Origin: a virus
Direction: 5' to 3' (one strand)
DNA: 36,839 bases
Virus record (IMG/VR): IMGVR_UViG_3300009417_000002
Span: 1 to 36,839 of that record
Shown piece after piece: positions 1 to 36,839 of the stretch. The notes under the pieces were generated by a model. It did not search any database and had not been told where the DNA came from. It saw nothing but the letters and a program-made list of their open reading frames with translations. The first letter of the stretch is position 1. Each line of letters starts with the position of its first letter. A program made the translations under genes and the position numbers.

Positions 1-123
1 AAATGGTCTGGGCGGTGTTTTTGCTTTTCTAACTTTGATATATCTGAACCTTCTAGTTCCTTTCTTTAAAGATTTTTGTATTACTGAACTTCTTCTGAAA
101 CTGGTTAATGCTGTGTGCAAACT
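1..123. repeat. Terminal direct repeat, copy 1 (identical to 36717..36839); circular-assembly overlap
   Basis: Base-by-base comparison shows 1..123 equals 36717..36839. The repeat lies inside an open reading frame that continues across the junction. Confidence 0.97.
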
Positions 124-17613: not shown

Positions 17614-20088
17614 TTAAATTGGATCGTTTATATGTATTAGTAAACGCCCAGTTATTTTAATTGTTGGTAAGCCTTTAAAAGGCAAATCATATGTTAAATT
17701 GTTTATCTGCACCCGAACTTGTTGAGCTGAATAGTTTGTTAATCCGCTTACCGAATCACAATTATTTTCAATATCAACAAAATAATCTGGATTAGATCCC
17801 GAACAACTCGGTGTTAAAGTAGAATTTATTAATAAAACATCTAATGGTTTTAATGATAAAAACTTATGTAAAACAATTCTAAAAGTGATATATTCATTTG
17901 GTAGATCGTGCTGACTTAACATTAACCTAGCAACTGAATTTGCTGATATATCATCAGCTAACCACTTATATTTATCTTCCTTTAACTCTTTTGTTCCGAA
18001 TAGCTTATAGCTATCTAATGCTAAAGTTTGTCCTATTCCACTATCATTATAATTCATATTAAGGATTTTACCAAACCCCCTATATTCTTTTTGTTGCTCG
18101 TCTTCAAAGTCTTCAACAACATCATAACGCCGATCATAAGCCATAGAAACTTTGTTAATAATACTTTTCAAATCATTGATAGTAAACTTTTCAAAGGTTA
18201 CTAAATCGTCATCAGTTAAAGTAAATAAATCAGTTTCTGGAACTCCGTCTGCATAAAGTCCCAACTTCTGATTTCCAACCCCTACATATGCAAGCCTAGA
18301 ATAAGAATCTCTCGCTAATTGCTTTATCAATTCTGTATTAAATACCCTTCCTTCGGTTGAACCACTCGTAGTTCTTCCAAAAGCCCACCCACCACTTATA
18401 TTGTATTGGCTATGCGTATGTAAAAAACAATTCTTTTCAAAATAACCACCTTCCCAATTGTTAGTTAAGGGATTGAATCGGTGTAATAATGTATCAACTT
18501 GGTTATGCGTTTGATCTATTAATTGCCCAGTAGTTCCAGTAACAGAACCCGTTGAATCAATTAAACCGTCCACTTCTAATATTATATCTAAATTTGAATC
18601 TTCTGGTTGAGTTCCAGTTCCTAAAGCGTTATATCTCAATTGAAAAAGCCTAGCACCTAAACCGTCGGTATTAACTTGTTCAATGCCTAATTCGTCAAAA
18701 TAACAAGCGTAAAAACCAAAATGAGCTGATCTCTGCCCCCTTAATTTTAAATGGTCTGGGTGTGAATCTTCTGGATCTTCAACGGTTCTATATCTGTTTA
18801 AATGGGTTCCTTGCGTATTCCAAGTTGGCACCTTTATTCTGTTTGGGCTGTCTGGTTTCTGCCCAGTAGAAGTGAAGGATAAAAAATACCCCCTATGTTG
18901 CCCGTCATTAACTTCACGGCTATTTATTGGAACTAATCTATCAAAATAAAATTGAACTGGGTATTGTTGATCGCCCATAATCCAACTTGGGGCATATCCT
19001 TGCCCTAGATCAAATAATGGAACTTTTGCTTCTGCAATATGACTTGATTCCCAATCTGGGGAACCGTCGGCTTTCATTGGATAAACTCTAAATATTAATT
19101 CGTCGCCGTCATCAACTGCAACTTCGCCAGATCCATTTCCTTGAATTAAGAACTGCCCGCCGTAAATAACTTTAGGATTATCAATATTATTTGGATCAAA
19201 ATTAATTGGATAATACCAACGCTGATTGTTTCTTGATTGCGTTCCAACATTTGGAACTCTTGGAAATCCTAGAATTGTAGAATTACCATTTCCCATTATA
19301 TCGCCTTGCACAAAATTAACTGGCTGAACTTCTGATAAGGCTCTGGAAGTTACTTTGTAATATTTGCGTTCTTCGTCCGTTTCCCCTTCTAGTTGCCTAA
19401 CTAGAACTTCTTTAACACCGCCACCGTCGAACCAGTTAGCGTATGTATTATCGCCAAAAGTAGTCTGATATGCCCACTTCTGCCCATACTGAAAGGAATT
19501 ACCGTTAATGTTATCTTTATGAGTTTTAACAACAATTGGTTTCACTTGGCGGTCTGAACCTAATACTAATGGAACAAACTTACCTAAACTTGAATCTGGG
19601 GCGTCTGGATAAAGTTCAGTTGTTATTTCTTGTTCTGCAATGTATTTTTTATCTTCCCAGTCATACCGCATAGATATTTCAAAACTTTCAGAACTGGCAT
19701 TAAATGATACACTTTCAACTATTCCACCCCATAAATTATCAAACTGGGGTTCACAATCCGAATCTTCGCAAGTTTCTGTTTGTCCAAATGCTAAAGTAAT
19801 TGGTTGTGCTGAAATAGTGTATTCACATAATAAATCGCTAAATCTTTTATTATGAGCAAAAGAACTTATAGAATTATCAATACTGGCTTTAGCTGATATT
19901 TTACTTGGGAAGTAATCATTTAGTTTTAAACCAAATCCAGATATAGACTTTAAAAGCGGAATAAACTTACAATTTGGATCATTTTTAATTGGTCTGTTGG
20001 TCAAATGAATCTGCATAGTATTAGAAGGATCATACTTGCCCATTAAATTTAGGGTTAAACAGTAGTATAAATCGTTTCCGCAAGCCAT
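17614..20088 (-). CDS. Large distal tail protein (Tal/baseplate-like, positional)
   Basis: 824 aa, the second largest ORF, located downstream of the TMP and Dit-like genes. The N-terminus is MACGND. Confidence 0.6.
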   Translation of the reverse strand: MACGNDLYYCLTLNLMGKYDPSNTMQIHLTNRPIKNDPNCKFIPLLKSISGFGLKLNDYFPSKISAKASIDNSISSFAHNKRFSDLLCEYTISAQPITLAFGQTETCEDSDCEPQFDNLWGGIVESVSFNASSESFEISMRYDWEDKKYIAEQEITTELYPDAPDSSLGKFVPLVLGSDRQVKPIVVKTHKDNINGNSFQYGQKWAYQTTFGDNTYANWFDGGGVKEVLVRQLEGETDEERKYYKVTSRALSEVQPVNFVQGDIMGNGNSTILGFPRVPNVGTQSRNNQRWYYPINFDPNNIDNPKVIYGGQFLIQGNGSGEVAVDDGDELIFRVYPMKADGSPDWESSHIAEAKVPLFDLGQGYAPSWIMGDQQYPVQFYFDRLVPINSREVNDGQHRGYFLSFTSTGQKPDSPNRIKVPTWNTQGTHLNRYRTVEDPEDSHPDHLKLRGQRSAHFGFYACYFDELGIEQVNTDGLGARLFQLRYNALGTGTQPEDSNLDIILEVDGLIDSTGSVTGTTGQLIDQTHNQVDTLLHRFNPLTNNWEGGYFEKNCFLHTHSQYNISGGWAFGRTTSGSTEGRVFNTELIKQLARDSYSRLAYVGVGNQKLGLYADGVPETDLFTLTDDDLVTFEKFTINDLKSIINKVSMAYDRRYDVVEDFEDEQQKEYRGFGKILNMNYNDSGIGQTLALDSYKLFGTKELKEDKYKWLADDISANSVARLMLSQHDLPNEYITFRIVLHKFLSLKPLDVLLINSTLTPSCSGSNPDYFVDIENNCDSVSGLTNYSAQQVRVQINNLTYDLPFKGLPTIKITGRLLIHINDPI

Positions 20089-20897
20089 TAAATCAATTCT
20101 TCCAAGTTTAAAGTTAAATCATAAGTAGATGGTTTCTGGATATTGTATTTAAAAGAATAGTTTTTTATATCTACATAAACCACAAAATCGCCACAAAACG
20201 CATAATCTAACTTGTCTATTACAAATAAGTTTGTAATATCTCTATTCCTTCCAATTATACACTCAAACTTGGATTTTGTATCAGCATCAATATTTTTGTA
20301 TTGCAAATTAAAACTTCTTACATTTCTTGAAATTTGCGGTCTTTTTAAATCTGTAAAATTTACAGTCATTGGATAGATCGGGTTTCTGTGAAATAAACCT
20401 TCACTTAAACAAAATCTTTTAAATTTTAGAGTTGCGGGAACTGGAAGTATAATTTCTATATTGTAATATTGATAAGGATTAGAAAAAACTAATCCAGAAG
20501 CTATAGTTTGAAAGTTTACCCCAATTAAATCAGTTGCATCAAATGTAATTGTTTGTGATTCACTTGCAACGGCGGGCGTAGTTCCCGCATATATATTTAC
20601 AGTTACCGTTCCCAGTGAAGCAATTTCAGAAACACCATCTATTACAAAACAATCTACTTGTTGCCAACTATTAGGATCAGCACCAAAATCAAATGCAAAT
20701 TCAAAATCAGTTTGTTGAATTGTTGAAATATACCCCTTTGGATTAGATCCAGTTGCTAAATATGTTTCAGATCCGCTTATTCCTTGCACTATCTCGCAAC
20801 ACTCTGGGCATTTATTCGGAACACAACCAGTTACTTTAACGCAAGGGTTTGTGTAACATAGTTTAATATCTGGTGTGCAATCTTTGAAACAAGTCAT
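20088..20897 (-). CDS. Tail tip/baseplate protein with Cys-knot-like N-terminus
   Basis: 269 aa with 8 Cys in the first 34 residues. Start and stop overlap the flanking genes. Confidence 0.5.
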   Translation of the reverse strand: MTCFKDCTPDIKLCYTNPCVKVTGCVPNKCPECCEIVQGISGSETYLATGSNPKGYISTIQQTDFEFAFDFGADPNSWQQVDCFVIDGVSEIASLGTVTVNIYAGTTPAVASESQTITFDATDLIGVNFQTIASGLVFSNPYQYYNIEIILPVPATLKFKRFCLSEGLFHRNPIYPMTVNFTDLKRPQISRNVRSFNLQYKNIDADTKSKFECIIGRNRDITNLFVIDKLDYAFCGDFVVYVDIKNYSFKYNIQKPSTYDLTLNLEELI

Positions 20898-21676
20898 TAT
20901 TGTAAATCTTCCAAAATATCAAATGTTAAGTTGTAATAGTCTTCTGCTGTCTTAGTATATCGGAAGTTAGAAACCCGCCCATAAATTAATTCTTTTTCAT
21001 TTATAAAATGCGTTCTATTAGTATTCCAGACATAAGCCCATTGAGTTTGCCAATTTAGAAAAAAACGCCTTTTAAATTGCCTAATAGCTACATCATCAAG
21101 CCCGTTATAAGTGAATTTATATCTTAATAGCGGTAATCCCGTTCTAACTTTATATTTGTACCCAGAAGTTGCGTACCTACTGGCTTTTCTTTGATCTATA
21201 AATTCTTCTGTAAAATTAGTTAAGCTGTAAATAGGATCTAAGAAGTTACCAAAAAATATTTTTCCAAAATTAAAATCAGTATTAACAATTGAGTTAAAAC
21301 AAACACGCCAATATTGATGATTACCAGTGTCCGCAAAAGTTTCAAAATAAGTATCATTTCTATTTCCAGTAATTTGAAAAGGTGTATTTACCGTTGTTAC
21401 ATTTACCCAAGTGATATTATCATCTGAATATTCTAATGTTACCGAAGTTGCCCCAGACAATTTAAGTAAATCAGCCCTTCCAATTATAAAATATTCCGCT
21501 GACTTCCCAGTAATTCCACAATTATATGTAATACAATTAGTTGTTGAACTGGAATTAAATTTGGTTCTTAAATAGCCATTTCCAGTGATAGAATTACAAA
21601 CTGTTTCAGAATCAGCTTTAACAGTTGAATTAAACGGTATATCTGGAACTGCAAAAAGAAAACAAGAATCATACAT
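20897..21676 (-). CDS. Distal tail protein (Dit-like, positional)
   Basis: 259 aa, immediately downstream of the tape measure gene. Confidence 0.5.
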   Translation of the reverse strand: MYDSCFLFAVPDIPFNSTVKADSETVCNSITGNGYLRTKFNSSSTTNCITYNCGITGKSAEYFIIGRADLLKLSGATSVTLEYSDDNITWVNVTTVNTPFQITGNRNDTYFETFADTGNHQYWRVCFNSIVNTDFNFGKIFFGNFLDPIYSLTNFTEEFIDQRKASRYATSGYKYKVRTGLPLLRYKFTYNGLDDVAIRQFKRRFFLNWQTQWAYVWNTNRTHFINEKELIYGRVSNFRYTKTAEDYYNLTFDILEDLQ

Positions 21677-24600
21677 TTACCCGTTCCCTTCTGGTAGATC
21701 AACCCCACCGTCCAGTACATCTTGGGCGGTTGCATCTGTTACATTTGAACTAACATTGATTTGATAATCTGTTGAAATACTATCTGGTATTCCGTCAATA
21801 CTTTTTCTTAATAATTCAATTTTATCTTGCGTGGATAGTGTAGCGTCGCCAAACCCCGCCATTGAATCTTGTAATTTATCAAATTCAACTTCGCCTATTT
21901 GTAATAATTGCCCTTCTGTCAAAAGCCCTTGCCCTTGCATCTCTTGAAGTTTAAAAGTAAGTTCTTCTGAACTACCACCAGTAAAATCAATCATTGTTGC
22001 CAATTGGCTAAATGCTTCTGGCATCTGCTCGCCTACAACCCCGTTCAGTTCAACAAAACCTTGCGTTGCTTCAACGGTATCTAATTTCAAAGTATCAAAT
22101 ATTCCTAGTTTCTTTTGCAAGTCTTCTGGAATCATTGTTGCCAATTGTTGCTTCAATCCAGTTGATGCACTTGCTAAACCTTCAAAACTTGTTATTCCTT
22201 CTGCCCCTATAGAATTTAAGGCTTCACTTATAGCACCAATTCCGCCTTCGCCTAGATTTAATTCTTCTAAATTAACACCTTCAAAAATAGTTCCAAAAAC
22301 ACCAGATAAATCAGTTTCCGCTGATACTGATTCTAATTGAACTTTTAATTCTTCTACTGTAAGCCCAACTGCATTTGCTAAACCATCTAATTGAGTTGGA
22401 TCAAAATCTTGTAAATTAAACAACTGCCCAATACCAAAATCAACGCCTTGTTGCCCCAGTATTGATTGAACATCATCAATTGCTAAACCTAAAGAACTAG
22501 CTAGTCCGCCAACACTGGTTTCAACATCTAAGTTTTCAAAGTTTAAACCTTCGCCAATCGTTCCTTGTATTCGATTTATTGCTTCGCCAATTTCCCCTTC
22601 TGATAATCCAAGTTCAGCACCAATACTTCTAATTCCTTCAATTACTTTACTGGCATCTAGTCCAGAAAAATCAAATGATTCAAAATCATTTGCTTCGTCA
22701 AGGTTGGTAATAAATTGTAATATATCTGAATTAGTTTCAGCCAATCCCGCTATGTTAAAATCTTGTCCTTCAAATATTCCATTTAGATTTTGTTGTAGTG
22801 ATCCAATCTTAGTAAGTGTACCGTCTATAAATGTATCAACGCCATTTGTATTAATTAACTCATCTGCTTGAATATCTAAACCACCTAAAATAGAAGTATC
22901 AAAATCGCCAAATTGTTTTTTTAGTTCTTCAATTGTAGATAAGAATTCAAATGCTGTTGCGTCGCCCGATTCAAATTGTGTTGCCACGCTTTGAAGTAAT
23001 CCGTCAAACCCTAAGCCCGCACCTTCCATTAATTGTTTTAATTGCTCGGTATCGCCTTTTAAGTTTACAAATAAAGAATTAATTACATTACTAGCACCCG
23101 CTACATCATCTGGATCAAGAACTTTTGCAAATGTTTTTCCTAGTGTATCAAATGTTGAAAAACTTTCTTCCCCTAAGCCTCCTAATGAATTTTTAATTTT
23201 ATCAATCTCTGCTGTTATTCCACCAGTATTTGAAATGTCGCCGAACGCATCTTTGGTTAATTCAAAACTTCCTTTTAAGAAGTCAAGCGTTCCGTCGCCT
23301 TTGAAAGTATCTAAATCTAAACTTGCATCTTTAATAATTTGATTTAAACCTTTAGTAATTCCTTCCCTTGCTTGTCCACCAACATTTTTAGAACCAAAAG
23401 CATCATTAATAAATGTTGTTGCCAATCCCGCCAATGCACCGCCTAATGGTCCAAAAAACACCGAACCTAATGTTGATGCAATAGTTGTTACACTAGCACC
23501 AGTAGAAGCAAAAGAATCTTCTAAATCACCAGTAAGTGTATTAACTAAAATATCGCCCGCTGGGATAAACTGGCTTGCTAATTGTCCCGCACCCGCTACC
23601 GCTATATTCTTAATTGAACTACTACTAAAACCGTCGGTTATTAATTCCGCTGTTGCTTCCCCAACTTTACCAAATGAACTTCCCGCAACTTTTAATATTG
23701 AATCTGAATTGATACCGTCTTGTAATAAAGTTCCCACTGAATTGGCTATTGCGTTGCTAGTTCCACCGCTGAAATTAAAAGATTTTATTAAGTCTGGGGC
23801 AAATGTTTTTCCAATATCAGTTAAGCCACCTTTTAAATCGCCGTCTAAAATATTAACAATTCCTTTTACTGATCCTTTTAACTTACTTGAATCTAATGAT
23901 CCTAAATCTAAATTATCTAATAAACCATCTAAGCCTAATTTATCTGATAGGTTAAAATCAAATGAACTTTCAAGCGTACTATCTAATGAATTAAATGTAC
24001 TGGATAATTTATCTAAACTAAAATCATCAAATAAACCTTTAACATCACTAAAAGTTCCTAATATATTTTTTCCACCTTCTACAACTGAATCTAAATTTAT
24101 ATTTTCAAAAATCCCGCCCAGTAGATCGCCACCACCACCAGAAAAAGCATCTTTAATTCCACCAAATACATTTCCTAAATCAACATCTTTAAATATCTTT
24201 CCAATTCCACCAAAAGCACTTTCTAAATCGAACCCTTCGCCTACAACTGATTTTAAAATACTTCCTAAATCGCCAACTGAACTTCCTACATCTGAAAAAT
24301 CTTTATCTGCAACGCAACTTAACTTCTCGCATAAGTTACCCATATCAATTGAACCACCTTTGGTTTTAGCAAATAGTGAACTTAATGATCCAGTTAGATT
24401 TGATACTGAACTTGATGCTGAACTTGTATCAGCTGTAATATTTCCAGTATTAGCAACACCACCAGTTGATATTGCACCAGAACTTGCACCAACTGAACTA
24501 ATACTTTGTTGTGTTTGTTGTAATTGCTGATTTAAACTTTGTACTGCTTTTTGTGTCGAACTTATAGCTGATTTACTTTGCTCTTGCCCAGTAGCTATGG

Positions 24601-28117: not shown

Positions 28118-28131
28118 AATATCCCCCTAAA

Positions 28132-28623
28132 TTAACATTGTTTATTTAATATTGCGTAATATGAAGTCTGTCCAATATAAATTGGCTGTCCTTCATTTAT
28201 CGGCTGTCCTTGAACTATACTTGGATATTCTCTATTCGGTAGCGTATGAGTTACCGAAGAATCCCAGTTACTTTTCATAGGTTCGTCTTCCATTAAGCAA
28301 TTTAAAATATCGAAGAACCTTTGAAGTTTTCTTTGGTTCTTACAAGTATCTTCTAATATGTATTCTATCAGAATTCTGAATTCGTACCTATAGCAACAAC
28401 CCATATCAGCGGGTATTGATCTTCTTTGTATGAAGTATTGAATAAAATTGATTTCGCCTTTACAAGTTACCTTCTTCATATCGCAAGAAGTATCTAATGT
28501 ATTTAGAACATTGCACCCGTGAATAAGGCTAGTAAACTCACGCATACATTTATGATTAAAAAGTTTTTCAAATACTGGATAGATATTATCGGAAGTACAG
28601 CAATTTTGAAGGCAATCACTCAT
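28132..28623 (-). CDS. Head-tail joining / tail terminator-sized protein (positional)
   Basis: 163 aa with N-terminus MSDCLQNCCTSD. Function unverified. Confidence 0.45.
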   Translation of the reverse strand: MSDCLQNCCTSDNIYPVFEKLFNHKCMREFTSLIHGCNVLNTLDTSCDMKKVTCKGEINFIQYFIQRRSIPADMGCCYRYEFRILIEYILEDTCKNQRKLQRFFDILNCLMEDEPMKSNWDSSVTHTLPNREYPSIVQGQPINEGQPIYIGQTSYYAILNKQC

Positions 28624-28741
28624 ACCCGAACCACCATACGCCTACTGTCAAAACCTATTGAAGTTTCTGGAACTCCGTCTGAATCGTTATCAAATTTAAC
28701 ATATAAGTTCTTTAATAGTTTAATTGCTTGATCTTCGTATC

Positions 28742-29386
28742 TCATACCCAGAACCCAATATTATCGTCTGGAACTCTGCTATGGTGTAAATAAACTTCTG
28801 CTAGTGTCTTTCTAATCACTACTTCTTTTAATGCTTTAGAATCCCAAATTCTGCAAGATTTATTGCAACAAGAAGAAATTTCAGCTTTTAAACTACTAAT
28901 TGATCTTTTTATAAATGGTTCTATATCGCCAACGCACGCACAAATTTCATTTTCTAAAGTAGGATCATAATCAATAACATCTGAAACATTAATATTGTCC
29001 AAAATACTATGGTGTCCATATAGTCTAGTTAATGTAATTTCCCTAATTATTATATGCTCGTCTGTTGAACCAGTTAGTAAACATTTAATTGCTAAATAGT
29101 ATTTTTTATCTATATTATGATCGCTTGAAGGATCTGGATCTGATATTGCGGGAACATCAAAACATTTACCTTTAAAATCATTTGTATCAACCCAAGTAGT
29201 TATTGCGGTTGGTAATATGAAATTGTTATTAGTCCCAGATACTGAATTAATAATATCATCACGGTTTGGATAACTTTCATAGATTTGAATCCATAACGGG
29301 GTAATTTCCAATTGTTCATAATCACAACAATCTGCCGTTACTGGATAGAAGTAATATTTAAACGGTTTCCCAAAATTCTTAATCAT
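28742..29386 (-). CDS. Head-tail connector-region protein (positional)
   Basis: 214-aa ORF, followed by a 118-nt noncoding gap. Confidence 0.45.
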   Translation of the reverse strand: MIKNFGKPFKYYFYPVTADCCDYEQLEITPLWIQIYESYPNRDDIINSVSGTNNNFILPTAITTWVDTNDFKGKCFDVPAISDPDPSSDHNIDKKYYLAIKCLLTGSTDEHIIIREITLTRLYGHHSILDNINVSDVIDYDPTLENEICACVGDIEPFIKRSISSLKAEISSCCNKSCRIWDSKALKEVVIRKTLAEVYLHHSRVPDDNIGFWV

Positions 29387-29852
29387 TTAATTTTTTATAT
29401 ATAATCGTTACTAAATCTTTTTCAGTTATAGACTTCTTAAAACTAATTCCTAATGAACTGGCAAATGCCATATTCTCTGCCTTAGTGAAGTTTTTTCTTA
29501 TCTCTTTAATTGATAATCCTTTTAGCTTTTCTTCTACTGAAACTATCTTTTTAACCTTTTTAGGCACTTCTACTGGGGTTTCTTCTTCTTCTTTATTCTC
29601 GCTGTCCGCAAGTTCGCCCATTTTTTTATCTAATTCTTCAAGTTCTAAATTTTTCTTTTCTTGGAACTTTTCTAACTTTTCAAGTAGCTTGTCGTTCTTC
29701 TTGTCGATTTTTTCCAGTTCTTTTATATCAGATATTACATTTCCCTTTTTGTCTAAAGGTAGTTTTGAAACTTCTTCAATTACTCGCTGTTCTTCTTTTA
29801 TAAGTTCGTCCAGAACTTGGTTCATTTGTTCAGTTACTTTTTCTATTGTCAT
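29379..29852 (-). CDS. E/K-rich coiled-coil protein with C-terminal HeH/SAP-like motif
   Basis: 157 aa. The C-terminal LSIKEIRKNFTKAENMAFASSLGISFKKSITEKDLVTIIYKKL resembles Rho-N/SAP-type helix-extension-helix motifs. Confidence 0.45.
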   Translation of the reverse strand: MTIEKVTEQMNQVLDELIKEEQRVIEEVSKLPLDKKGNVISDIKELEKIDKKNDKLLEKLEKFQEKKNLELEELDKKMGELADSENKEEEETPVEVPKKVKKIVSVEEKLKGLSIKEIRKNFTKAENMAFASSLGISFKKSITEKDLVTIIYKKLND

Positions 29853-31348
29853 TATATATTCCTAAATGCTGTTCCAGTTAAATTTGCTGAAAGTGTTGGT
29901 TGATAAGTTTGTCTGCCGTATGCCATAACGCCTTGTACTGTAGAAGTTCCCGCAAATACGATAAATAAATAAAAATATGCTGATATTTGGCTTCTATAAA
30001 CCCTTCCAACGGCTGTGCTATTTCTTACATAAAGAAGCCCGTAAGAATTACAATTATTCCAATAAGCCCTAACATCAGATCCACCGTTATTATAATAATA
30101 AATCCTTCCGCCAGAACTAACTGTATTGTAATAAAAATAATTAGCCGAAGTATTATTTGCACACCATAAATAACCATTATCAGAAATAGAATTTTGATAT
30201 GCTCTAATATTTGTAGAATTTTGGAATCTTACATATCCATTGGTCATTACATTACCATAGTAAAAATATGGATTAGTATTTGTACCTAAGAAGTAAAGTA
30301 AGCCCCTACTTTGATTATTTGAATAATAAACCCTAGCCCCAGTAGTTCCATTTTGGAATAAAGTTCTACTGTTTGAACTTAGCGTTGATTGTGAAACTAT
30401 GTTTGTTAAACTTGTAGATTGTTGCTGTAAGTAAGCATTTGTTTGAATAGTAGAATAACTAATTCTTAATCTACCTTGCGTTACTTGAACATACCCCCTA
30501 CTTTGAACAGTTGAATATGAACAGTTAATTCTAGCACCACTAGATACAACTATATATCCTTGACTTATAATTGAACTTCTATAAAAATTAACTTCCGTTG
30601 CACCGTTCGCAATAATATAAGCAAATGCGTGAAAATTAGTGTCTTGAATTGCAACGCCAGTTGCCCCAGTTAAAGCAATTGATGCCCTTTTAAATGAACT
30701 TCTATAAACCAACCCTACTGCATCAGTTCCATTAAAACTTGTCTGATTTTCAAAACTACAAGCTATAATAGTTAAGTTGCCATTGATAACTGTATTGTTA
30801 TCTAAAACCCTACTTTGGTTAATCGTTCCCGTTCCTTGTTGAGTATATGCTGATTCTTGGCTAAAAGTATTTTCAGTATTAGATCCACCAATAATTGTAA
30901 CACTAGCTTGCGTATCAATTACATTTCTAATAAAACTACCACCACTATAAATTAACCTTCCGCCTTGCTTTACAATATTTTCATTTACTGTAGATACCCC
31001 AAAAGGAAAATTCGCTGTTGATATAGCACTTGATACTTCATTATTATTTACTGAATCAAAGACATATTCAATTGCCCCGTTGTCCCAGTCCATAACTGCG
31101 TGCCACCCTTCATTTGGGTTTAATACTGGGGAAGTGTAAATCCCAGAATCAGATAAAGAACCACTAGCTGTAGCATAAGCACCAAATTCAGCCGTTCCAC
31201 CCGCTAAAATATGAGTAACATCAATTGCAATATATAAACAACCTTCTGTTAAACCACCAGAATTTCTTAATGCTAAAATATTAGCCCTAGTATCTCTATG
31301 GACGCAAGGCTTACTGTCTGATTGAACTGTTCCCCTAGTAATCGCCAT
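29852..31348 (-). CDS. Tyr-rich parallel beta-helix (beta-solenoid) repeat protein; fibre/spike candidate
   Basis: The track start is TTG 31372. ATG 31348 (MAITRG...) has AAGGAAG 7 nt upstream and abuts the upstream stop, giving about 498 aa. The C-terminal ~260 aa (roughly 29933..30712) form about 12 tandem 20-23-aa units, for example VYYSNNQSRGLLYFLGTNTNPY, FYYGNVMTNGYVRFQNSTNIR and AYWNNCNSYGLLYVRNSTAVGR. Confidence 0.6.
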   Translation of the reverse strand: MAITRGTVQSDSKPCVHRDTRANILALRNSGGLTEGCLYIAIDVTHILAGGTAEFGAYATASGSLSDSGIYTSPVLNPNEGWHAVMDWDNGAIEYVFDSVNNNEVSSAISTANFPFGVSTVNENIVKQGGRLIYSGGSFIRNVIDTQASVTIIGGSNTENTFSQESAYTQQGTGTINQSRVLDNNTVINGNLTIIACSFENQTSFNGTDAVGLVYRSSFKRASIALTGATGVAIQDTNFHAFAYIIANGATEVNFYRSSIISQGYIVVSSGARINCSYSTVQSRGYVQVTQGRLRISYSTIQTNAYLQQQSTSLTNIVSQSTLSSNSRTLFQNGTTGARVYYSNNQSRGLLYFLGTNTNPYFYYGNVMTNGYVRFQNSTNIRAYQNSISDNGYLWCANNTSANYFYYNTVSSGGRIYYYNNGGSDVRAYWNNCNSYGLLYVRNSTAVGRVYRSQISAYFYLFIVFAGTSTVQGVMAYGRQTYQPTLSANLTGTAFRNI

Positions 31349-31349
31349 T

Positions 31350-32333
31350 TTAAACTTCCTTGTAATAATCAACTTCTAAAATAAAAGTATCAGTTCCATT
31401 TGCTATTGCTTGAAAGTTAGCCAATTCTTGGGCTATTCCGTTATGGTCTTCTGGGTTACAACCTAATAAGATTTGAAAATAATCATCAGATTTTCTTCCA
31501 ATTAAACCAGTTGGAACGCTTCCGTTAGCGTACCACCTTAAAGGATCACTTCCAGAAACTCTTTGAACTTGAATTATAGAACCTACTGCCCCTACTGGAA
31601 CTGTTAATAATTGAACTGTTGCACCTACTGTAATTCTTTCAGAAGCACCTTCTATTAAATCAAGTTTAGTATCTGCTGTTGGTATTAAATTTTCCCAATC
31701 CATACTAAAATCATATTTAGGCTTATTACCACATTTACATTTTAAAGTTCCAACTGGCGTATATGGGGCATCTGTTACTGGATCAAAGGCACCTATTAAA
31801 ACACCGTCTTCATATTTATTAACTGCACAACCTACGCAAACTTCATAATCCCAATCTAAAGGATTAGAATTAACTGCTGTTACTGTCGTTCCGTCCCAGT
31901 CAATTTTTACACCTACACCAATTACCGCCCCTTGATTAGTTTCAATAACTAAATAAACATAATATGTATTAGCGGGTAATCCAGTAAAGTCATAAGTTTC
32001 AGATCCGCCTAATGGAATAAATCTTTTAGCTGTAAATTGCGGAACTAATTGTGCTATTGTATATGAATCATTTGCACTTGGTGTTGAAACATCTGTAATT
32101 GTTACTTCTGTTGGGCTTGTAATTACTACCGTTGCTTCTGTTGTGAAAGTTTCCAGTACGCAATCACATAATTTACTTGAACCGCCACCATTTTCATAAT
32201 CAATTGGTGGTGTAGGTGGTGTTGAACCCGCTGTGATTGTAGTTACTGCGTTGTTATACCAAGTAAGCCAATACGCATCATCTATTGCGTGATTTGCTTG
32301 CTCTAATGCAATTATTGTTGCTTGATCTGTCAT
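31350..32333 (-). CDS. Hypothetical 327-aa structural-module protein, partner of the beta-solenoid gene
   Basis: The leader is GGGGGATTTAATG. The protein is T/V/G-rich and beta-type, with a PPTPP linker and Cys pairs (CDC, CVGC, CKC). Confidence 0.55.
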   Translation of the reverse strand: MTDQATIIALEQANHAIDDAYWLTWYNNAVTTITAGSTPPTPPIDYENGGGSSKLCDCVLETFTTEATVVITSPTEVTITDVSTPSANDSYTIAQLVPQFTAKRFIPLGGSETYDFTGLPANTYYVYLVIETNQGAVIGVGVKIDWDGTTVTAVNSNPLDWDYEVCVGCAVNKYEDGVLIGAFDPVTDAPYTPVGTLKCKCGNKPKYDFSMDWENLIPTADTKLDLIEGASERITVGATVQLLTVPVGAVGSIIQVQRVSGSDPLRWYANGSVPTGLIGRKSDDYFQILLGCNPEDHNGIAQELANFQAIANGTDTFILEVDYYKEV

Positions 32334-32353
32334 TAAATCCCCCGATTATATAA

Positions 32354-32862: not shown

Positions 32863-32886
32863 AATATCCCCCTAAATGGTTAAAAT

Positions 32887-33036: not shown

Positions 33037-33063
33037 AAGTTCCCCCTTTTTTTATATTATAGC

Positions 33064-34208: not shown

Positions 34209-35111
34209 TTAAAGAATTGGTGATTCTAATCTACAAATTGCTTCATCTCTGTGTAAAGCAAAATCAGAAAAATGACAAGAAGCTACTAACTCTCTAAAGT
34301 ATTCGACATCTGCATCACTTATTTTTGTTTTGATTGATTGGTCATAACAACCAACAAATGCCCTAGCGGGATCAAATACTGCGTTCATAAAGTTAGCACC
34401 GTCATCATCAACAACTGTAGTAACATAAATATCAAGCCCACCGTGTGTAGCGTAATATCCATTTGATCTTTGGCTTGAAGCGTGTTCAATCAGATCAGTA
34501 TATGAAGTATTATTATTTCCATAAATCGCTGGCAATACCCCAGTCGCTGGGTTTAAAACATCTACCACACCAATTTCAAATGCTGTCTTTTCGTGAAGTA
34601 CAGAAACTAATCTGCTATCTGTAACACTGTGTCCATTTGTTGATGCTCTAATGTTAAAAGCACACGCTTGTAAATCAAGCTGTGAAGCTGATACACCCGC
34701 TGTGTTTAAAACAGAAGTAGAAGTTGAAACAAGTGTAGAAATATCTTCTTCCATACCTAAAACAAATGCTTTAGCTTGTTCTTCCCCAATCTTAGTGTAA
34801 GGATCTCTATATCCGAATCTGTCCGCTTCTTCTGTAATTCTTGAAATTACTGTAGATTTAATCGGATTTAACAATGTAAATGTTTCAATGTATTCTGAAT
34901 ATAATCCAAATGTATATTGAACATTTTCTGGTAAAACTAATCTTCTTAGTTCCCCGTCTTTTGTTATTTTTTTTGTCTGTGTGCCTACTGGCATACCAAC
35001 ATCATTGATTAAGTTCAACCAAACTGCTCTTGGTGTCAAGTTAGCACTGGCTGACATCTGTACAATATCTGTTGGATTGTTTAAGTTTCCATAAGTTGTT
35101 GTAAATGGCAT
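34209..35111 (-). CDS. Major capsid protein (positional)
   Basis: 300 aa, directly after the scaffold-like gene. It has a strong leader (AAGGGGGAATTATG) and a hairpin after its stop. Confidence 0.65.
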   Translation of the reverse strand: MPFTTTYGNLNNPTDIVQMSASANLTPRAVWLNLINDVGMPVGTQTKKITKDGELRRLVLPENVQYTFGLYSEYIETFTLLNPIKSTVISRITEEADRFGYRDPYTKIGEEQAKAFVLGMEEDISTLVSTSTSVLNTAGVSASQLDLQACAFNIRASTNGHSVTDSRLVSVLHEKTAFEIGVVDVLNPATGVLPAIYGNNNTSYTDLIEHASSQRSNGYYATHGGLDIYVTTVVDDDGANFMNAVFDPARAFVGCYDQSIKTKISDADVEYFRELVASCHFSDFALHRDEAICRLESPIL

Positions 35112-35127
35112 AATTCCCCCTTAGTTA

Positions 35128-35874
35128 TTAAAGCCCTAATTGTTTCGCTTTAGCATATTGTATCTTAGGATCTAAACTTCTCCTATAGTTATCATCTTCA
35201 ACAAATCTTTTATTATCTATTGAATCTAAAGCCGACGATCCACCATTTCCACCAGTAGTTCTATTTTGGTTCGGTTGCCCCGCACCACTTTTTCCTTCTG
35301 GTCTAAAATATGACGGTCTAGCTGTTTTTAATTCAGATATATACTCATCTAAAGACATATTGCTTTTCGGGTTGGCTCTCGACAACCGAATATTACCTTC
35401 TGAATCTTTAACAACTAAATTTCCTTCCACCATATCAACATCACGGCGTATTATGTTTTTGATGTCTTCCGCAACATCTTCATTAATCATTGTTGAAACT
35501 TTCCCGAAGGCTCGATCTACAACTTTTAATTCTTTAAGTTCTTGATTCCTAGCCCCTAGCCTTTCTTCTAGATCAGTTATTTTGCTTCCATAATCTGATT
35601 TGAACCGTTCTTTTTCTTGATTAACTCGTTCTTCAACCATTTGATTTATTTGTTCTGGATTACCGCCCGCTGATTGGGTTTGTAAATCTCTTAGCTTCTG
35701 GCGGTCTTCTTCAATTTTAGTTAAATCAACACCTTTATAAATGCCTAGCTGTTCGCTTAGTTCTGAATTTTTATTTGTTAATTCAGTCATTTTACTTGTT
35801 GCTTCTGCTAACTGGGTTTGCACTTCTGCAAACTGTTCTGCTGAAACCGTATTTTCTTCATTTTCTTTAGTCAT
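35128..35874 (-). CDS. Scaffolding protein (positional / compositional)
   Basis: 248 aa with an E/Q/K-rich coiled-coil N-terminal half. It lies immediately upstream of the capsid gene. Confidence 0.55.
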   Translation of the reverse strand: MTKENEENTVSAEQFAEVQTQLAEATSKMTELTNKNSELSEQLGIYKGVDLTKIEEDRQKLRDLQTQSAGGNPEQINQMVEERVNQEKERFKSDYGSKITDLEERLGARNQELKELKVVDRAFGKVSTMINEDVAEDIKNIIRRDVDMVEGNLVVKDSEGNIRLSRANPKSNMSLDEYISELKTARPSYFRPEGKSGAGQPNQNRTTGGNGGSSALDSIDNKRFVEDDNYRRSLDPKIQYAKAKQLGL

Positions 35875-35882
35875 AGCCGTTA

Positions 35883-36311
35883 TTACCTAAATATATAATT
35901 AATTAATCGTTTCACTTGTTCTTCTGACATAGCCATAAACCGTCTAAATGGAACTCTGGAACTATCGCCTTGATTCCACCTAGCCTTCTGTCTATTAAAT
36001 TCGCCAGTTACTGATATTTTACCAGATATTCCCTTCTTACCTATACCAACTTTAGTTTGAATAGAATTGAGCATATTCCCAGTTAGTTTTAAATCTGGCG
36101 GACTGGATTGTAAACCACGCTTCCTTTTATAATCTGCATAGCTTTTAGAATATGGTTTAAAAGTTGATCCTTCTGGGCTTTGCCCCTTTTTAGTTCTGGT
36201 TATGATTTCAGTTCTTATATTTGGCAAGGCACTATCTAATCTGGCTTTCACATTTGGGTTTATTCGGGTTATTGCGTCCCTAAAGTTTCCAGATTGTTTA
36301 TATTTTATCAA
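35883..36311 (-). CDS. Hypothetical basic 142-aa head-module protein
   Basis: ORF carrying PDLKLTGNMLNSI, loosely reminiscent of virion-morphogenesis families. Not verifiable by eye. Confidence 0.45.
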   Translation of the reverse strand: MIKYKQSGNFRDAITRINPNVKARLDSALPNIRTEIITRTKKGQSPEGSTFKPYSKSYADYKRKRGLQSSPPDLKLTGNMLNSIQTKVGIGKKGISGKISVTGEFNRQKARWNQGDSSRVPFRRFMAMSEEQVKRLINYIFR

Positions 36312-36586: not shown

Positions 36587-36839
36587 TTGCTACTGGTTCC
36601 CAATCGTGGGTGCAATTATAACCACCCCCATAAATAAATACTGGCGTTAAACCTTGCCCGTTATCCATTTGTTGAATTTCTTCATAAGTGAATATCTTAC
36701 CTTGCCTTTCAGCACAAAATGGTCTGGGCGGTGTTTTTGCTTTTCTAACTTTGATATATCTGAACCTTCTAGTTCCTTTCTTTAAAGATTTTTGTATTAC
36801 TGAACTTCTTCTGAAACTGGTTAATGCTGTGTGCAAACT
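36573..36839 (-). CDS. Head morphogenesis protein (MuF / SPP1 gp7-like), C-terminal part of the gene split by the window edge
   Basis: The C-terminal PPRPFCAERQGKIF...GGGYNCTHDWEPV resembles the conserved Cys/His-containing end of MuF/gp7 family proteins. The track-listed M is merely the window edge. Confidence 0.6.
   Translation of the reverse strand, partial: SLHTALTSFRRSSVIQKSLKKGTRRFRYIKVRKAKTPPRPFCAERQGKIFTYEEIQQMDNGQGLTPVFIYGGGYNCTHDWEPVANEEE
36717..36839. repeat. Terminal direct repeat, copy 2 (identical to 1..123)
   Basis: Direct comparison with 1..123. Confidence 0.97.

What the first reader, a model, noticed from the sequence alone, without database searches (positions are those of the whole stretch)
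29852..32333. Tyr-rich beta-solenoid protein and 327-aa partner inserted between capsid and connector genes
Siphovirus-type modules usually have only small head-completion genes between the major capsid and tail-tube genes. Here a 327-aa beta-rich protein with a strong GGGGG RBS and a ~498-aa protein sit in that slot.

The C-terminal ~260 residues of the larger protein are about 12 tandem 20-23-aa units. The consensus is roughly aromatic-Y-x-(S/N)-x4-5-G-(Y/L)-hydrophobic...R. That periodicity is typical of right-handed parallel beta-helices, as in tailspikes and depolymerases. The unusual Tyr density is something I cannot match to a known family.

The location suggests a head fibre, or a neck/collar fibre, rather than a distal tail spike.
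Basis: partly seen in the sequence, partly recalled or inferred. Interest (0 to 1): 0.65.

Follow-up and report, generated by a model that had tools for sequence, protein, structure and literature searches.

The report
Portable tyrosine-rich beta-helix fibre cassette
A complete, very novel 36.7-kb phage genome carries, in the middle of its head-to-tail genes, a tyrosine-rich beta-helix protein from a widespread but unnamed family that travels between unrelated phages together with a small acidic partner protein and most likely acts as an add-on sticking fibre rather than a routine assembly part.

Summary
On the minus strand, a 327-aa gene (31350-32333, GGGGGA ribosome-binding site) is followed by a 498-aa gene (29852-31348). 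The last ~250 residues of the 498-aa protein are 10-11 coils of 21-23 aa, with 10.8% Tyr and stacked Tyr/Arg ladders. AlphaFold models a three-stranded solenoid from about residue 120 to 455.

No Pfam, PHROG, NCBIfam, PDB or cultured-phage match exists for the Tyr-rich part. An exhaustive profile search still finds 193 related protein clusters, so this is an unnamed family, not an orphan.

The helix has no conserved acidic residue, which argues for a binding solenoid rather than a depolymerase.

The 327-aa "partner" is an orphan and is not conserved. The recurring partner is the gene immediately downstream (157 aa here). It is small and helical in all 14 loci (acidic in 13). It carries a signal peptide exactly when the helix protein does (4/4 against 0/10).

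In other phages, upstream genes are fused to the helix protein's N-terminus.

The cassette sits after the capsid gene, between terminase and portal, or in tail-fibre slots, depending on the phage. In Streptomyces phage Xkcd426 a related cassette is a known 6-kb insertion.

Whether it mounts on the head, neck or tail in this phage remains unresolved.

The parts
31350..32333 (-). p327: a 327-aa orphan protein upstream of the helix gene. Predicted N-terminal helix, Pro/Thr linker, then beta-rich domains. Proposed lineage-specific adaptor or shaft.
   Evidence: ORF. The only match in 5.8 billion proteins is itself. No PHROG, Pfam, NCBIfam or PDB hit. The AlphaFold single-sequence model has pLDDT 42, with only weak FN3/Ig-like matches at E>0.03. 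The adaptor role is inferred from gene fusions in relatives, not from homology.
32338..32343 (-). GGGGGA ribosome-binding site of p327.
   Evidence: All five minus-strand GGGGGA copies in the genome lie 4-5 nt upstream of a start codon: putative capsid gene 35111, 49-aa gene 33036, 66-aa gene 32862, p327 32333 and putative tube gene 28117.
29852..31348 (-). p498: a 498-aa Tyr-rich beta-helix protein and the core of the cassette.
   Evidence: 193 related clusters found by exhaustive profile search. AlphaFold solenoid.
30974..31312 (-). Conserved N-terminal domain of p498 (residues ~13-125). Motifs: C..TRA.L.ALRN...L..C.Y..D ... W.G.YD.D ... D..NN.V ... FP(F/W)G..V..N.V.
   Evidence: It holds the only conserved acidic residues, D43, D87, D89 and D98. 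It is shared with Streptomyces phage Xkcd426 gp20 (hhalign probability 99.2%, E 1e-19; tblastn). Of the 153 proteins on file, 143 match it. The AlphaFold model is poor here (pLDDT 38-52).
30593..30973 (-). Irregular beta-helix coils of p498 (residues ~126-252).
   Evidence: DSSP shows three strands per 17-21 residues at pLDDT 60-84. No significant sequence period.
29933..30592 (-). Ten regular 21-24-aa coils of p498 (residues 253-472). Position 1 alternates Arg and Tyr. Positions 3 and 4 carry Tyr ladders.
   Evidence: Autocorrelation z 5.5 and 5.1 at lags 22 and 21, and 4.8 at lag 11. Register. R339, R382, R427 and Y341/342, Y384, Y406/407, Y429, Y451 are conserved across the family.
29852..29932 (-). 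C-terminal tail of p498 (residues 473-498 plus stop): G.GR....T.....GTA..N-[I/F].
   Evidence: G478, R479, G492 and N497 are 84-100% conserved, and the last residue is hydrophobic or aromatic in 76%. The AlphaFold model is disordered here.
29379..29852 (-). p157: a 157-aa Lys/Glu-rich helical protein with a C-terminal helix-hairpin motif (LSIKEIRKNFTKAENMAFASSLGISF..KDLVTIIYKKL). The conserved downstream partner; proposed assembly chaperone or scaffold.
   Evidence: Its start overlaps the p498 stop. It is homologous to the gene downstream of the helix gene in L010 (BLASTP E 3e-10, phmmer 8e-8). A small helical protein (acidic in 13 of 14) sits in the same position in all 14 loci. Signal peptides co-vary with the helix protein.

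Best explanation
What it is. p498 is a late-expressed member of an unnamed, widespread family of phage beta-helix proteins. It has a conserved ~110-aa N-terminal domain, about six irregular coils, and ten very regular 21-24-aa coils. The side chains of those regular coils stack into Tyr, Arg/Tyr, Asn and Ser/Thr ladders. Acidic residues are almost absent from the helix and none is conserved there. The helix is therefore most likely a rigid binding (adhesin) surface for a polysaccharide-type ligand, not a glycan-cleaving enzyme (inferred).

The cassette. p498 is the core of a portable three-part unit.
1. An upstream, lineage-specific protein (p327 here). In other phages the equivalent is fused to the N-terminus of the helix protein, so it is read as the adaptor or shaft that plugs the fibre into a particular virion (inferred by analogy; p327 itself has no homologue).
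2. The helix protein.
3. A small helical, usually acidic, protein immediately downstream (p157 here). It always shares the helix protein's compartment: a signal peptide on both or on neither. It is most simply a dedicated folding, trimerisation or scaffold partner, in the manner of the small assembly genes that follow tail-fibre genes (inferred).

Mobility and mounting. The cassette sits at different places in the structural modules of unrelated sipho-, myo- and podo-like phages. In a cultured Streptomyces phage a related cassette is an insertion that sister phages lack. It is therefore an accessory adhesion module, not an essential connector. In this phage it lies among the head-completion genes, and p327 has the same strong ribosome-binding site as the putative capsid and tube genes. 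I therefore favour display on the head or neck via an abundant p327. Tail mounting is not excluded.
For: Fold and repeat.

Family size and absence from curated libraries: 193 clusters at E<1e-3 and 63 at E<1e-30; no Pfam, PHROG, NCBIfam or PDB hits. No cultured phage carries the Tyr-rich part.

No catalytic signature: in a 33-sequence alignment the only columns with at least 60% D/E are 43, 87, 89 and 98, all in the N-terminal domain. D+E is 1.5% of the C-terminal 277 residues.

Fusion and fission: the L001 upstream 276-aa protein matches the N-terminal extensions of P0051, P0018 and P0045 (E 1e-14 to 1e-6). The L009 upstream 349-aa protein matches those of P0062, P0018 and P0070 (E 7e-15 to 8e-5).

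Downstream partner:
- A small helical protein sits directly downstream in all 14 loci; 13 are acidic (pI 4.4-5.4) and L019's has a basic tail (pI 9.4).
- Searching 932 ORFs from all loci, each partner hits only ORFs in that same position.
- p157 against the L010 partner gives E 3e-10.
- A signal peptide is present on both proteins in L005, L008, L022 and L023, and on neither in 10 other loci. There are no discordant cases; my own Fisher calculation from these counts gives about 0.001.

Variable position.

Accessory nature: Xkcd426 gp20 shares the N-terminal domain. It lies in the >6-kb insertion (about 17800-24000) that the four sister cluster-BG phages lack (PMC5511901).

Late-operon integration and RBS class.
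Against: - There is no experimental or proteomic evidence that any family member is in a virion.
- 12 of 153 relatives carry Sec signal peptides, and tailed-phage virions assemble in the cytoplasm. At least some members therefore probably act outside the cytoplasm, which fits poorly with a purely virion-bound fibre.
- p327 has no detectable relation to the upstream or fused domains of relatives, so its adaptor role is positional analogy only.
- The downstream partners fall into three sequence groups that profile comparison does not link, so a single partner family is not shown.
- The AlphaFold model rests on only two sequences. Mean pLDDT is 65, and the N-terminal domain and C-terminal tail are unmodelled.
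- The oligomeric state is unknown.
- Absence of conserved acidic residues does not exclude an unusual catalytic mechanism.
Confidence: 0.5

Rival explanations
1. It is an ordinary distal tail fibre or receptor-binding protein whose gene is displaced into the head-completion region. The protein attaches to the tail tip or baseplate and is the main, or a secondary, host-recognition device.
For: In several relatives the gene is in a classical tail-fibre slot. In L009 it follows the baseplate hub and wedge. In L010 it follows tape measure-Dit-383-409. In L011, L006 and L007 it is the last structural gene before the holin or amidase. The pairing of a fibre gene with a small downstream gene is the usual layout of tail fibres and their assembly proteins (textbook examples: lambda stf-tfa, T4 37-38, P2 H-G). 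Foldseek matches include tailspikes and tail fibres.
Against: In the window, in L004 and in the Xkcd426 cassette the gene lies between the capsid and tail-tube or sheath genes. In L005 it lies between terminase and portal. The window already has three genes after the tape measure (259, 269 and 824 aa) that could form the tail tip. Conservation runs opposite to the usual receptor-binding pattern: the C-terminal helix is the conserved part and the N-terminal part is variable.
Confidence: 0.25
2. It is not a virion component. The helix protein and its acidic partner are a late-expressed accessory pair. They act at the host envelope when they carry signal peptides, or are released at lysis when they do not. 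Possible roles are a surface or aggregation adhesin, a receptor mask or a decoy.
For: 12 of 153 family members have typical Sec signal peptides. In all four loci examined the partner has one too, and these lie in bona fide phage contigs: L022 has ClpP protease, RecT, YqaJ and NinG; L005 has TerS, TerL, portal and capsid genes. The best PDB fold matches are the self-associating autotransporter passengers Ag43 and TibA. The cassette behaves like an insertion in L005 and Xkcd426.
Against: p498, p157 and p327 have no signal peptide. The genes are translationally coupled inside the structural operon. Most relatives sit in fibre slots. Fused N-terminal extensions with repeated domains look like fibre shafts.
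Confidence: 0.17
3. It is an enzymatically active tailspike or depolymerase that cleaves a capsule or exopolysaccharide.
For: It has a right-handed beta-helix fold. Foldseek lists AlgG epimerase, alginate and pectate lyases, P22 and CBA120 tailspikes and Klebsiella depolymerases.
Against: All those matches are weak (TM 0.15-0.34, identity 8-14%). No D, E or H column in the helix reaches 60% (D/E) or 50% (H) conservation in the family alignment. D+E is 1.5% in the repeat region. There are no Pfam Beta_helix, Pectate_lyase or Peptidase_S74 hits.
Confidence: 0.05
4. The two genes are routine head-completion or connector proteins of an unusually divergent phage.
For: They lie between the capsid and tube genes. 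Almost nothing in this phage matches known families, so a missing match is weak evidence.
Against: Adaptor, head-closure and tail-completion proteins are typically about 100-200 aa and are not solenoids. The same protein occurs in sipho-, myo- and podo-like phages at non-connector positions. The related Xkcd426 cassette is absent from sister phages.
Confidence: 0.03

Closest known systems
Right-handed parallel beta-helix phage tailspikes and appendages (P22 gp9, CBA120 TSP3, phi29 gp12 pre-neck appendage)
   Same: A three-stranded solenoid with about 22 residues per coil, encoded in a late structural operon. The fold-level matches are to these proteins.
   Different: No sequence relationship. 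No conserved catalytic acidic residues. Extreme Tyr content with Arg/Tyr ladders. No recognisable N-terminal virion-binding domain. TM-scores are only 0.15-0.34. No C-terminal intramolecular chaperone domain.
Self-associating autotransporter passengers (Ag43, TibA, AIDA-I type)
   Same: These are the best PDB fold matches (E 2e-4 to 9e-4, Foldseek probability 1.0). They are non-enzymatic adhesive beta-helices built from short regular repeats. Some relatives carry signal peptides.
   Different: No C-terminal beta-barrel translocator. p498 has no signal peptide. The repeat is 21-24 aa rather than about 19 aa. The genes lie in phage structural modules.
Tail-fibre plus downstream assembly-protein gene pairs (lambda stf-tfa, T4 gp37-gp38, and the small acidic helical T4 gp57A); from general knowledge
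   Same: A fibre gene is followed directly by a small partner gene. The partner here is small, helical and usually acidic, like gp57A. Co-variation of signal peptides shows the two act in the same compartment.
   Different: No sequence similarity to Tfa, gp38 or gp57A families was found. The partners here often end in a Rho_N/SAP-like helix-hairpin (L014 E 1.3e-5, L009 E 0.006). Chaperone activity is untested.
Head fibres and decoration proteins encoded next to the capsid gene (phi29 gp8.5, T4 Hoc, T5 pb10); from general knowledge and review PMC7602432 (listed, not read)
   Same: The cassette lies downstream of the putative capsid gene. p327 has a capsid-class ribosome-binding site and weak FN3/Ig-like fold hints.
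   Different: No homology. Five small genes separate the capsid gene from p327. The family also occurs in tail-fibre slots. Capsid binding is untested.
Streptomyces phage Xkcd426 gp17-gp21 insertion (cluster BG, Woodruffvirus)
   Same: gp20 shares the ~130-aa N-terminal domain and first coils (hhalign 99.2%). It also lies between the capsid and major tail genes, among large genes of unknown function. gp18 belongs to PHROG 18824, as does a gene just upstream of the helix gene in L006.
   Different: The helix of gp20 is Gly/Thr/Val-rich, not Tyr-rich. No acidic helical partner follows it (gp21 is a beta-type 179-aa protein). Its function is equally unknown.

Membership tests
Right-handed parallel beta-helix (pectin-lyase-like fold) | Tandem coils of about 18-25 residues, each with three short beta-strands | tested here: met
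   Period 21/22 with z above 5. DSSP on the AlphaFold model shows three strands per coil across residues ~120-455.
Right-handed parallel beta-helix (pectin-lyase-like fold) | Structural superposition on solved members | tested here: inconclusive
   All top Foldseek hits are right-handed beta-helices with probability up to 1.0. But TM is only 0.24-0.44 and rmsd 9-13 A, from a model with mean pLDDT 65.
Right-handed parallel beta-helix (pectin-lyase-like fold) | Match to the Pfam beta-helix, PbH1 or pectate-lyase models | tested here: not met
   No Pfam family at E<=0.01 for p498 or for eight relatives.
Phage depolymerase tailspikes | Conserved acidic (or Lys/Arg plus Ca) catalytic residues on the helix | tested here: not met
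   No column beyond residue 98 has at least 60% D/E or at least 50% His. The conserved Arg residues form a stacking ladder at one repeat position.
Phage depolymerase tailspikes | Recognisable N-terminal particle-binding domain, or C-terminal chaperone or autoprotease domain | tested here: not met
   No PHROG, Pfam or NCBIfam hit. The protein ends 26 residues after the last coil.
Phage depolymerase tailspikes | Homotrimer | not testable with these tools
   No multimer prediction or experiment was available.
Autotransporter adhesins (Ag43/TibA type) | N-terminal signal peptide and C-terminal beta-barrel translocator | tested here: not met
   p498 starts MAITRGTVQSD with no hydrophobic segment. 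There is no room for a barrel after the helix. Twelve of 153 relatives do have signal peptides, but they also lack a barrel.
Head fibre or capsid decoration proteins (phi29 gp8.5, Hoc, pb10) | Sequence or fold relationship to a known decoration protein | tested here: not met
   No hits for p327 or p498. The p327 model is too poor to use (pLDDT 42; FN3-like hits at E>0.03).
Head fibre or capsid decoration proteins (phi29 gp8.5, Hoc, pb10) | Physical presence on the capsid | not testable with these tools
   Needs virion proteomics or cryo-EM.
Head-tail connector proteins (adaptor, head closure, tail completion) | Small ring-forming proteins conserved in position between the capsid and tube genes | tested here: not met
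   The proteins are 327 and 498 aa. The position of the family varies between phages. No connector PHROG hit.
HeH / Rho_N / SAP helix-hairpin motif (for p157) | Match to PF07498, PF02037 or PF12949 | tested here: inconclusive
   p157 itself has no hit. The positional equivalents score Rho_N E 1.3e-5 in L014 and SAP E 0.006 in L009; the SAP score (16.6 bits) is below its gathering cut-off of 23.9, and the Rho_N bit score was not returned. The C-terminal motif of p157 aligns with that of L010.

The most novel reading that the evidence does not exclude
The cassette is a self-contained, horizontally mobile display kit made of a lineage-specific adaptor, a Tyr/Arg-ladder beta-helix adhesin and a dedicated acidic helical partner. 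It can be plugged into the head, neck or tail of unrelated phages. In signal-peptide-bearing versions it is exported to act at the host envelope. That would make it a new class of phage accessory adhesion module, built on a structurally new type of aromatic-ladder solenoid and with a chaperone or scaffold family not described before.
Probability: 0.25. Interest if true: 0.7.

Novelty: new variant of a known kind. Interest (0 to 1): 0.5.

Why it matters
Beta-helix fibres and spikes decide what a phage sticks to. This family is common in environmental sequence data: 193 clusters at 50% identity. Its members come from contigs of 32-54% G+C, including two binned with a Planktomarina and a Saprospiraceae genome and two phages that read TGA as a sense codon. 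Yet no database names it, and no cultured phage is known to carry the Tyr-rich helix.

Four features are unusual:
- The conserved end is the C-terminal helix and the variable end is the N-terminus, the reverse of the usual receptor-binding pattern.
- It travels with its own small helical, usually acidic, partner.
- It is found at head, packaging and tail positions.
- Some versions are secreted together with the partner.

If it is an accessory adhesin, it is a candidate for how environmental phages bind particles, mucus or host surfaces independently of the injection machinery. It would also be a ready-made scaffold, a flat Tyr/Arg face, for engineered binders. Giving the family, its N-terminal domain and its partner proteins a name would improve annotation of many metagenomic phages.

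Tried and rejected
1. The word-indexed protein search found only one relative of p498 and none of p327. Repeating it with a 33-sequence profile was swamped by low-complexity words and added only one weak hit. Only the exhaustive search revealed the family.

2. tblastn of p498, p327, the capsid, portal and 824-aa tail proteins against 50,697 cultured phages gave no match.

3. The locus search with the broad alignment failed for lack of a conserved peptide. With a tighter alignment it gave one IMG/VR locus, two loci on MAG contigs and two short metagenome fragments. No relatives of the window phage itself were found through its capsid or tube proteins, so I could not test whether sister phages lack the cassette.

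4. I thought p327 contained a copy of the Cys-flanked '...YTPxGTV..C' repeat of PHROG 18824 (Xkcd426 gp18, L006 143-aa). An HMM built from seven such units does not hit p327. Rejected.

5. p327 shows no similarity to the upstream proteins of other loci or to the N-terminal extensions of 153 relatives.

6. The p327 structure prediction was too poor to use (pLDDT 42). Its FN3-like Foldseek hits are not significant.

7. I tried to unite the downstream partners into one family. jackhmmer stops at L010, and hhalign between the three groups gives probabilities below 3%.

8. The family profile against PDB sequences hits only antibody VH framework 3, which is compositional chance.

9. The promoter and terminator scan shows nothing above shuffled expectation.

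10. Literature searches for Tyr-rich solenoids in phages, and for signal peptides on flavobacterial phage fibres, found nothing relevant.

Full report
**1. Setting**

The window is a complete phage genome.
- Its first 123 bases repeat at its end.
- The same sequence occurs as a 36,856-bp ENA contig and a 14-kb JGI contig.
- G+C is about 32%.

The structural genes run on the minus strand.
- Across the window junction lie TerL (2136-3536) and portal (521-2146).
- The order then continues from the high end of the window: a MuF-like fragment, a 142-aa protein, scaffold (35128-35874, PHROG 206), a 300-aa putative capsid protein (34209-35111) and five small genes (239, 104, 49, 66 and 95 aa).
- Next come p327 (31350-32333), p498 (29852-31348) and p157 (29379-29852).
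- They are followed by a 255-aa gene, a 163-aa gene, a 378-aa putative tube protein, two chaperone-sized genes, a 1503-aa tape measure (PHROG 3779/1272), genes of 259, 269 and 824 aa, and a lysozyme-like gene.

Most of these proteins match nothing in PHROGs, Pfam or NCBIfam. The putative capsid, portal and 824-aa tail proteins also have no relatives among 50,697 cultured phages. Capsid, tube and connector assignments therefore rest on order and size.

**2.

The 498-aa reading (ATG 31348, AAGGAAG box) is the one chosen by the public gene calls. p327 has GGGGGA 5 nt before its ATG.

Residues 221-498 of p498 have a strong 21/22-residue period, with an 11-residue sub-period and 44/66 harmonics. 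The z-scores are 5.5, 5.1 and 4.8 against 500 shuffles. The N-terminal 220 residues have no such period.

In register there are ten coils of 21-24 residues (253-472) and a 26-residue tail.
- Position 1 runs R339, Y361, R382, Y404, R427, R449. Arg and Tyr alternate over the first five coils.
- Position 3 is Tyr in Y341, Y363, Y384, Y406, Y429 and Y451.
- Position 4 is mostly aromatic.
- A Gly followed by an aromatic or Leu opens the longest strand.
- An Asn follows it.

Tyr makes up 10.8% of the last 277 residues, and D+E only 1.5%.

AlphaFold2, run on an alignment of only two sequences, gives mean pLDDT 65, but 70-86 across residues ~130-420. It shows three short strands per coil from about 120 to 455. 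That makes about 16 coils in total, of which only the last ten are regular in sequence.

**3. Fold class, but no known family**

Foldseek against the PDB returns only right-handed beta-helices.
- The top hits are Ag43 (E 2e-4), TibA and AlgG.
- Alginate and pectate lyases and the P22 and CBA120 tailspikes follow.
- TM-scores are 0.24-0.44 and sequence identities 9-13%.

Against predicted viral structures the picture is the same: tailspikes, depolymerases, pre-neck appendages and giant-virus beta-helix proteins, with TM no higher than 0.34.

Sequence searches find nothing.
- No Pfam, PHROG or NCBIfam match.
- No real PDB match. A family profile hits only antibody VH framework 3, a compositional accident.

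**4. It is a large, unnamed family**

The word-indexed search found a single relative: P0002, 32% identity, on a 3.4-kb contig. A profile of the two sequences, run exhaustively against 1.84 billion representatives, found 193 proteins at E<1e-3, 108 at E<1e-10 and 63 at E<1e-30.

Among the 153 sequences on file:
- 143 match the N-terminal domain.
- 117 match the Tyr-rich part.
- Tyr averages 7.9% of the last 250 residues in the Tyr-rich matches, against 2.4% in the proteins that have only the N-terminal domain.

Nearly the whole of p498 (residues ~13-498) is the conserved unit. Longer members, up to 1568 aa, carry extra and very diverse N-terminal extensions.

In a 33-sequence alignment:
- The only columns with at least 60% acidic residues are D43, D87, D89 and D98, all in the N-terminal domain.
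- No His column reaches 50%.
- In the helix the conserved positions are the Tyr and Arg ladder residues, turn Gly and Asn residues, and a C-terminal G.GR...G...N-[F/I] motif.

This is why I rate an enzymatic depolymerase as unlikely and a binding solenoid as likely. That step is inference.

**5. What travels with it**

I collected 14 loci with usable neighbours.

| Locus | Type | Layout around the helix gene |
|---|---|---|
| Window | Siphovirus-like | See section 1 |
| L001 | Unknown (3.4-kb contig) | 112 - 276 - [helix 575] - acidic partner (cut by the contig end) |
| L004 | Myovirus | TerL - portal - protease - 132 - 363 - 64 - 255 - [helix 651] - 59-aa acidic - four small genes - sheath |
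| L005 | Unknown | TerS - TerL - 113 - 145 - 142 - [helix 681] - acidic - 305 - portal - MuF - protease - capsid |
| L006 | Podovirus-like | T7-type portal ... 224 - 143 - 131 - [helix 594] - 85-aa acidic - 105 - 92 - amidase |
| L008 | Unknown | Portal-like 502 - 199 - 280 - 154 - [helix 912] - 182 - 926 ... |
| L009 | Myovirus | Tape measure - baseplate hub - wedge ... 349 - [helix 528] - 127 |
| L010 | Siphovirus-like | Tape measure - Dit - 383 - 409 - 94 - 56 - [helix 1351] - 118 |
| L011 | Unknown | 362 - 270 - [helix 548] - 114 - holin |
| L014 | Unknown | Amidase - 143 - 214 - [helix 555] - 128 (Rho_N) |
| L016 | Unknown | Capsid ... 1755 - [helix 577] - 150 |
| L019 | Unknown | SLT - 356 - [helix 521] - 143 - 263 - TerL |
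| L022 | Unknown | ClpP protease - 421 ... 300 - [helix 862] - 158 ... RecT, YqaJ, NinG |
| L023 | Unknown | 527 - 328 - [helix 819] - 180 |

By BLASTP, the helix protein is the only clearly shared gene among the loci compared. The only other hits were weak ones (E 1e-4 to 6e-4) between the small downstream ORFs of L004, L005 and L006. Three regularities emerge.

(a) A small helical protein lies immediately downstream in all 14 loci.
- It is acidic (pI 4.4-5.4) in 13 of them; the L019 protein has a basic tail (pI 9.4).
- When each partner is searched against 932 ORFs from all loci, the hits at E<0.01 are exclusively ORFs in that same position.
- These hits form three groups: L001/L008/L014/L016/L019, window/L010 (with L011 marginal), and L004/L005/L006.
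- p157 aligns with the L010 partner over a C-terminal motif, LS.KE..KNFTK..N...A.SLG...K.KE....IY, at E 3e-10.
- The equivalent region scores as Rho_N in L014 (E 1.3e-5) and as SAP in L009 (E 0.006). Both are weak matches; the SAP score is below its curated cut-off.
- Profile comparison does not link the three groups. A single homologous family is therefore not shown; the partners share only position and helical, mostly acidic, character.

(b) Signal peptides co-vary perfectly.
- Twelve of 153 helix proteins have classical Sec signal peptides.
- In the four such loci I could inspect (L005, L008, L022, L023), the downstream partner also has one.
- In the ten loci where the helix protein has none, neither does the partner.
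- With no discordant case, my own Fisher calculation from these counts gives about 0.001.

This is the strongest evidence that the two proteins work together in one compartment. It is also the main difficulty for a purely virion-bound role.

(c) Upstream genes differ from locus to locus, but in two cases they equal the N-terminal extensions of longer members.
- The L001 276-aa protein matches P0051, P0018 and P0045 (E 1e-14 to 1e-6).
- The L009 349-aa protein matches P0062, P0018 and P0070 (E 7e-15 to 8e-5).

This fusion and fission implies that the upstream protein and the helix protein form one assembly. p327 occupies that position, but it is an orphan with no similarity to any of them. Its adaptor role is positional analogy.

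**6. A cultured relative and mobility**

Central family members match one protein in Streptomyces phages Xkcd426 and Mischief19. Xkcd426 gp20 (411 aa) shares the N-terminal domain and first coils (hhalign probability 99.2%, E 1e-19). It continues as a different, Gly/Thr/Val-rich helix.

It lies between the capsid gene (gp14) and the major tail gene (gp22), among large genes of unknown function. One of these, gp18, belongs to PHROG 18824. So does the 143-aa gene just upstream of the helix gene in L006.

[quoted passage not shown] It makes Xkcd426 over 7 kb larger than its four sister phages (PMC5511901). The cassette type is therefore dispensable and mobile in at least one cultured lineage.

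**7. What this means for the window**

The cassette is translationally coupled within the late operon. It has no signal peptides. It sits among what are probably the head-completion genes.

GGGGGA occurs five times on the coding strand, each time 4-5 nt before a start codon. The five genes are the putative capsid gene, a 49-aa gene, a 66-aa gene, p327 and the putative tube gene. This suggests, but does not prove, that p327 is made in large amounts like the major structural proteins. That would fit a capsid- or tube-decorating adaptor.

The low-confidence p327 model resembles FN3/Ig-like sandwiches only at non-significant levels.

I therefore favour an accessory fibre displayed on the head or neck via p327, with p157 as assembly partner. 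I assign this about 0.5 overall. The specific mounting site is no better than even odds within that.

**8. Rivals**

- A displaced but ordinary tail fibre (0.25) is supported by the tail-slot positions of L006, L009, L010 and L011.
- A non-virion envelope or lysis-released pair (0.17) is supported by the signal-peptide versions and the Ag43-like fold matches.
- A depolymerase (0.05) fails the catalytic-residue test.
- A routine connector (0.03) fails the size and synteny tests.

**9. Verdict**

The feature is real and the solenoid call is right. The family is undescribed but not rare.
- The head/neck placement is not established.
- The named partner, p327, is not the conserved one.
- The conserved downstream partner, the fusion and fission of upstream genes, the variable position and the co-varying signal peptides are new.

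This is a new variant of a known kind (a phage beta-helix fibre). Interest is moderate, about 0.5. It would be higher if the portable display-kit reading or the exported versions are confirmed.

Noticed in passing
window 1-123 and 36717-36839: The first 123 bases are repeated exactly at the end of the window. This is an assembly overlap indicating a circular, complete genome of about 36.7 kb.
   Followed up: partly
window ~28761 (gene 28619-29386, minus strand): Compared with the two public copies (L002, L003), the window lacks one A in an A-run. This truncates the 255-aa gene two genes downstream of p498 to 214 aa. It could be a sequencing error, a population variant or a slippery site.
   Followed up: partly
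window 35115-35120, 33041-33046, 32867-32872, 32338-32343, 28122-28127 (minus strand): All five minus-strand GGGGGA hexamers sit 4-5 nt upstream of start codons: putative capsid, 49-aa, 66-aa, p327 and putative tube genes. The total count is not above chance, but the placement is striking and suggests a class of highly translated structural genes. Frequent AGGA/AAGG boxes elsewhere suggest a host that uses Shine-Dalgarno sites.
   Followed up: partly
L005 3576-5946; L008 5648-8936; L022 10001-13069; L023 2808-5811: In these phage contigs both the helix protein and its downstream acidic partner start with classical Sec signal peptides (for example MKNIITLIFLCISLACFG|Q and MKHLIVILLFLTGSLFA|Q). 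Twelve of 153 family members have one. Exported proteins encoded inside phage structural modules are unexplained.
   Followed up: partly
L011 1385-5865, L012; protein P0024: These contigs have many in-frame TGA codons: 28 in the helix gene of L011. The gene caller read them as Trp. In the family alignment those positions are mostly Gly (18 of 30 for P0048, 14 of 38 for P0024), and these proteins are Gly-poor. TGA is therefore probably read as Gly, as in genetic code 25 of Gracilibacteria and Absconditabacteria. These are likely phages of such bacteria.
   Followed up: partly
L013 (Streptomyces phage Xkcd426, record 17777-24261): The >6-kb orphan insertion noted in the genome paper consists of gp17-gp21. 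gp20 has the family's N-terminal domain. gp18 is a three-repeat member of PHROG 18824. By eye, gp19 resembles a lectin-type (PA14-like) beta-sandwich.
   Followed up: partly
L006 8879-9793 and L001 97-1267: Genes just upstream of the helix gene come in paralogous pairs with shared ends. In L006 the 143- and 131-aa proteins share Cys-flanked repeats, and the 224- and 143-aa proteins both end ...ITDL(S/T)LL. In L001 the 112- and 276-aa proteins both end ...VQDCAG.P... These could be shared attachment motifs.
   Followed up: no
L009 8946-9995; P0018 residues ~612-771; P0062; P0070; P0005: Some upstream proteins and N-terminal extensions share a ~180-aa domain that by eye resembles a PA14/lectin-like sandwich. 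It has no Pfam hit.
   Followed up: no
family profile A2, positions ~417-476: The Tyr-rich coils score weakly (E about 0.01) against antibody VH framework 3 (YYADSVKGRFTISRDN...AVYYCA). This is a compositional coincidence.
   Followed up: yes
window 35883-36311 (minus strand): A 142-aa protein with a weak tail-completion/Neck1 match (PHROG 26, E 9e-6; Pfam Phage_tail_S, weak) is encoded upstream of the scaffold gene, an unusual place for such a protein.
   Followed up: no
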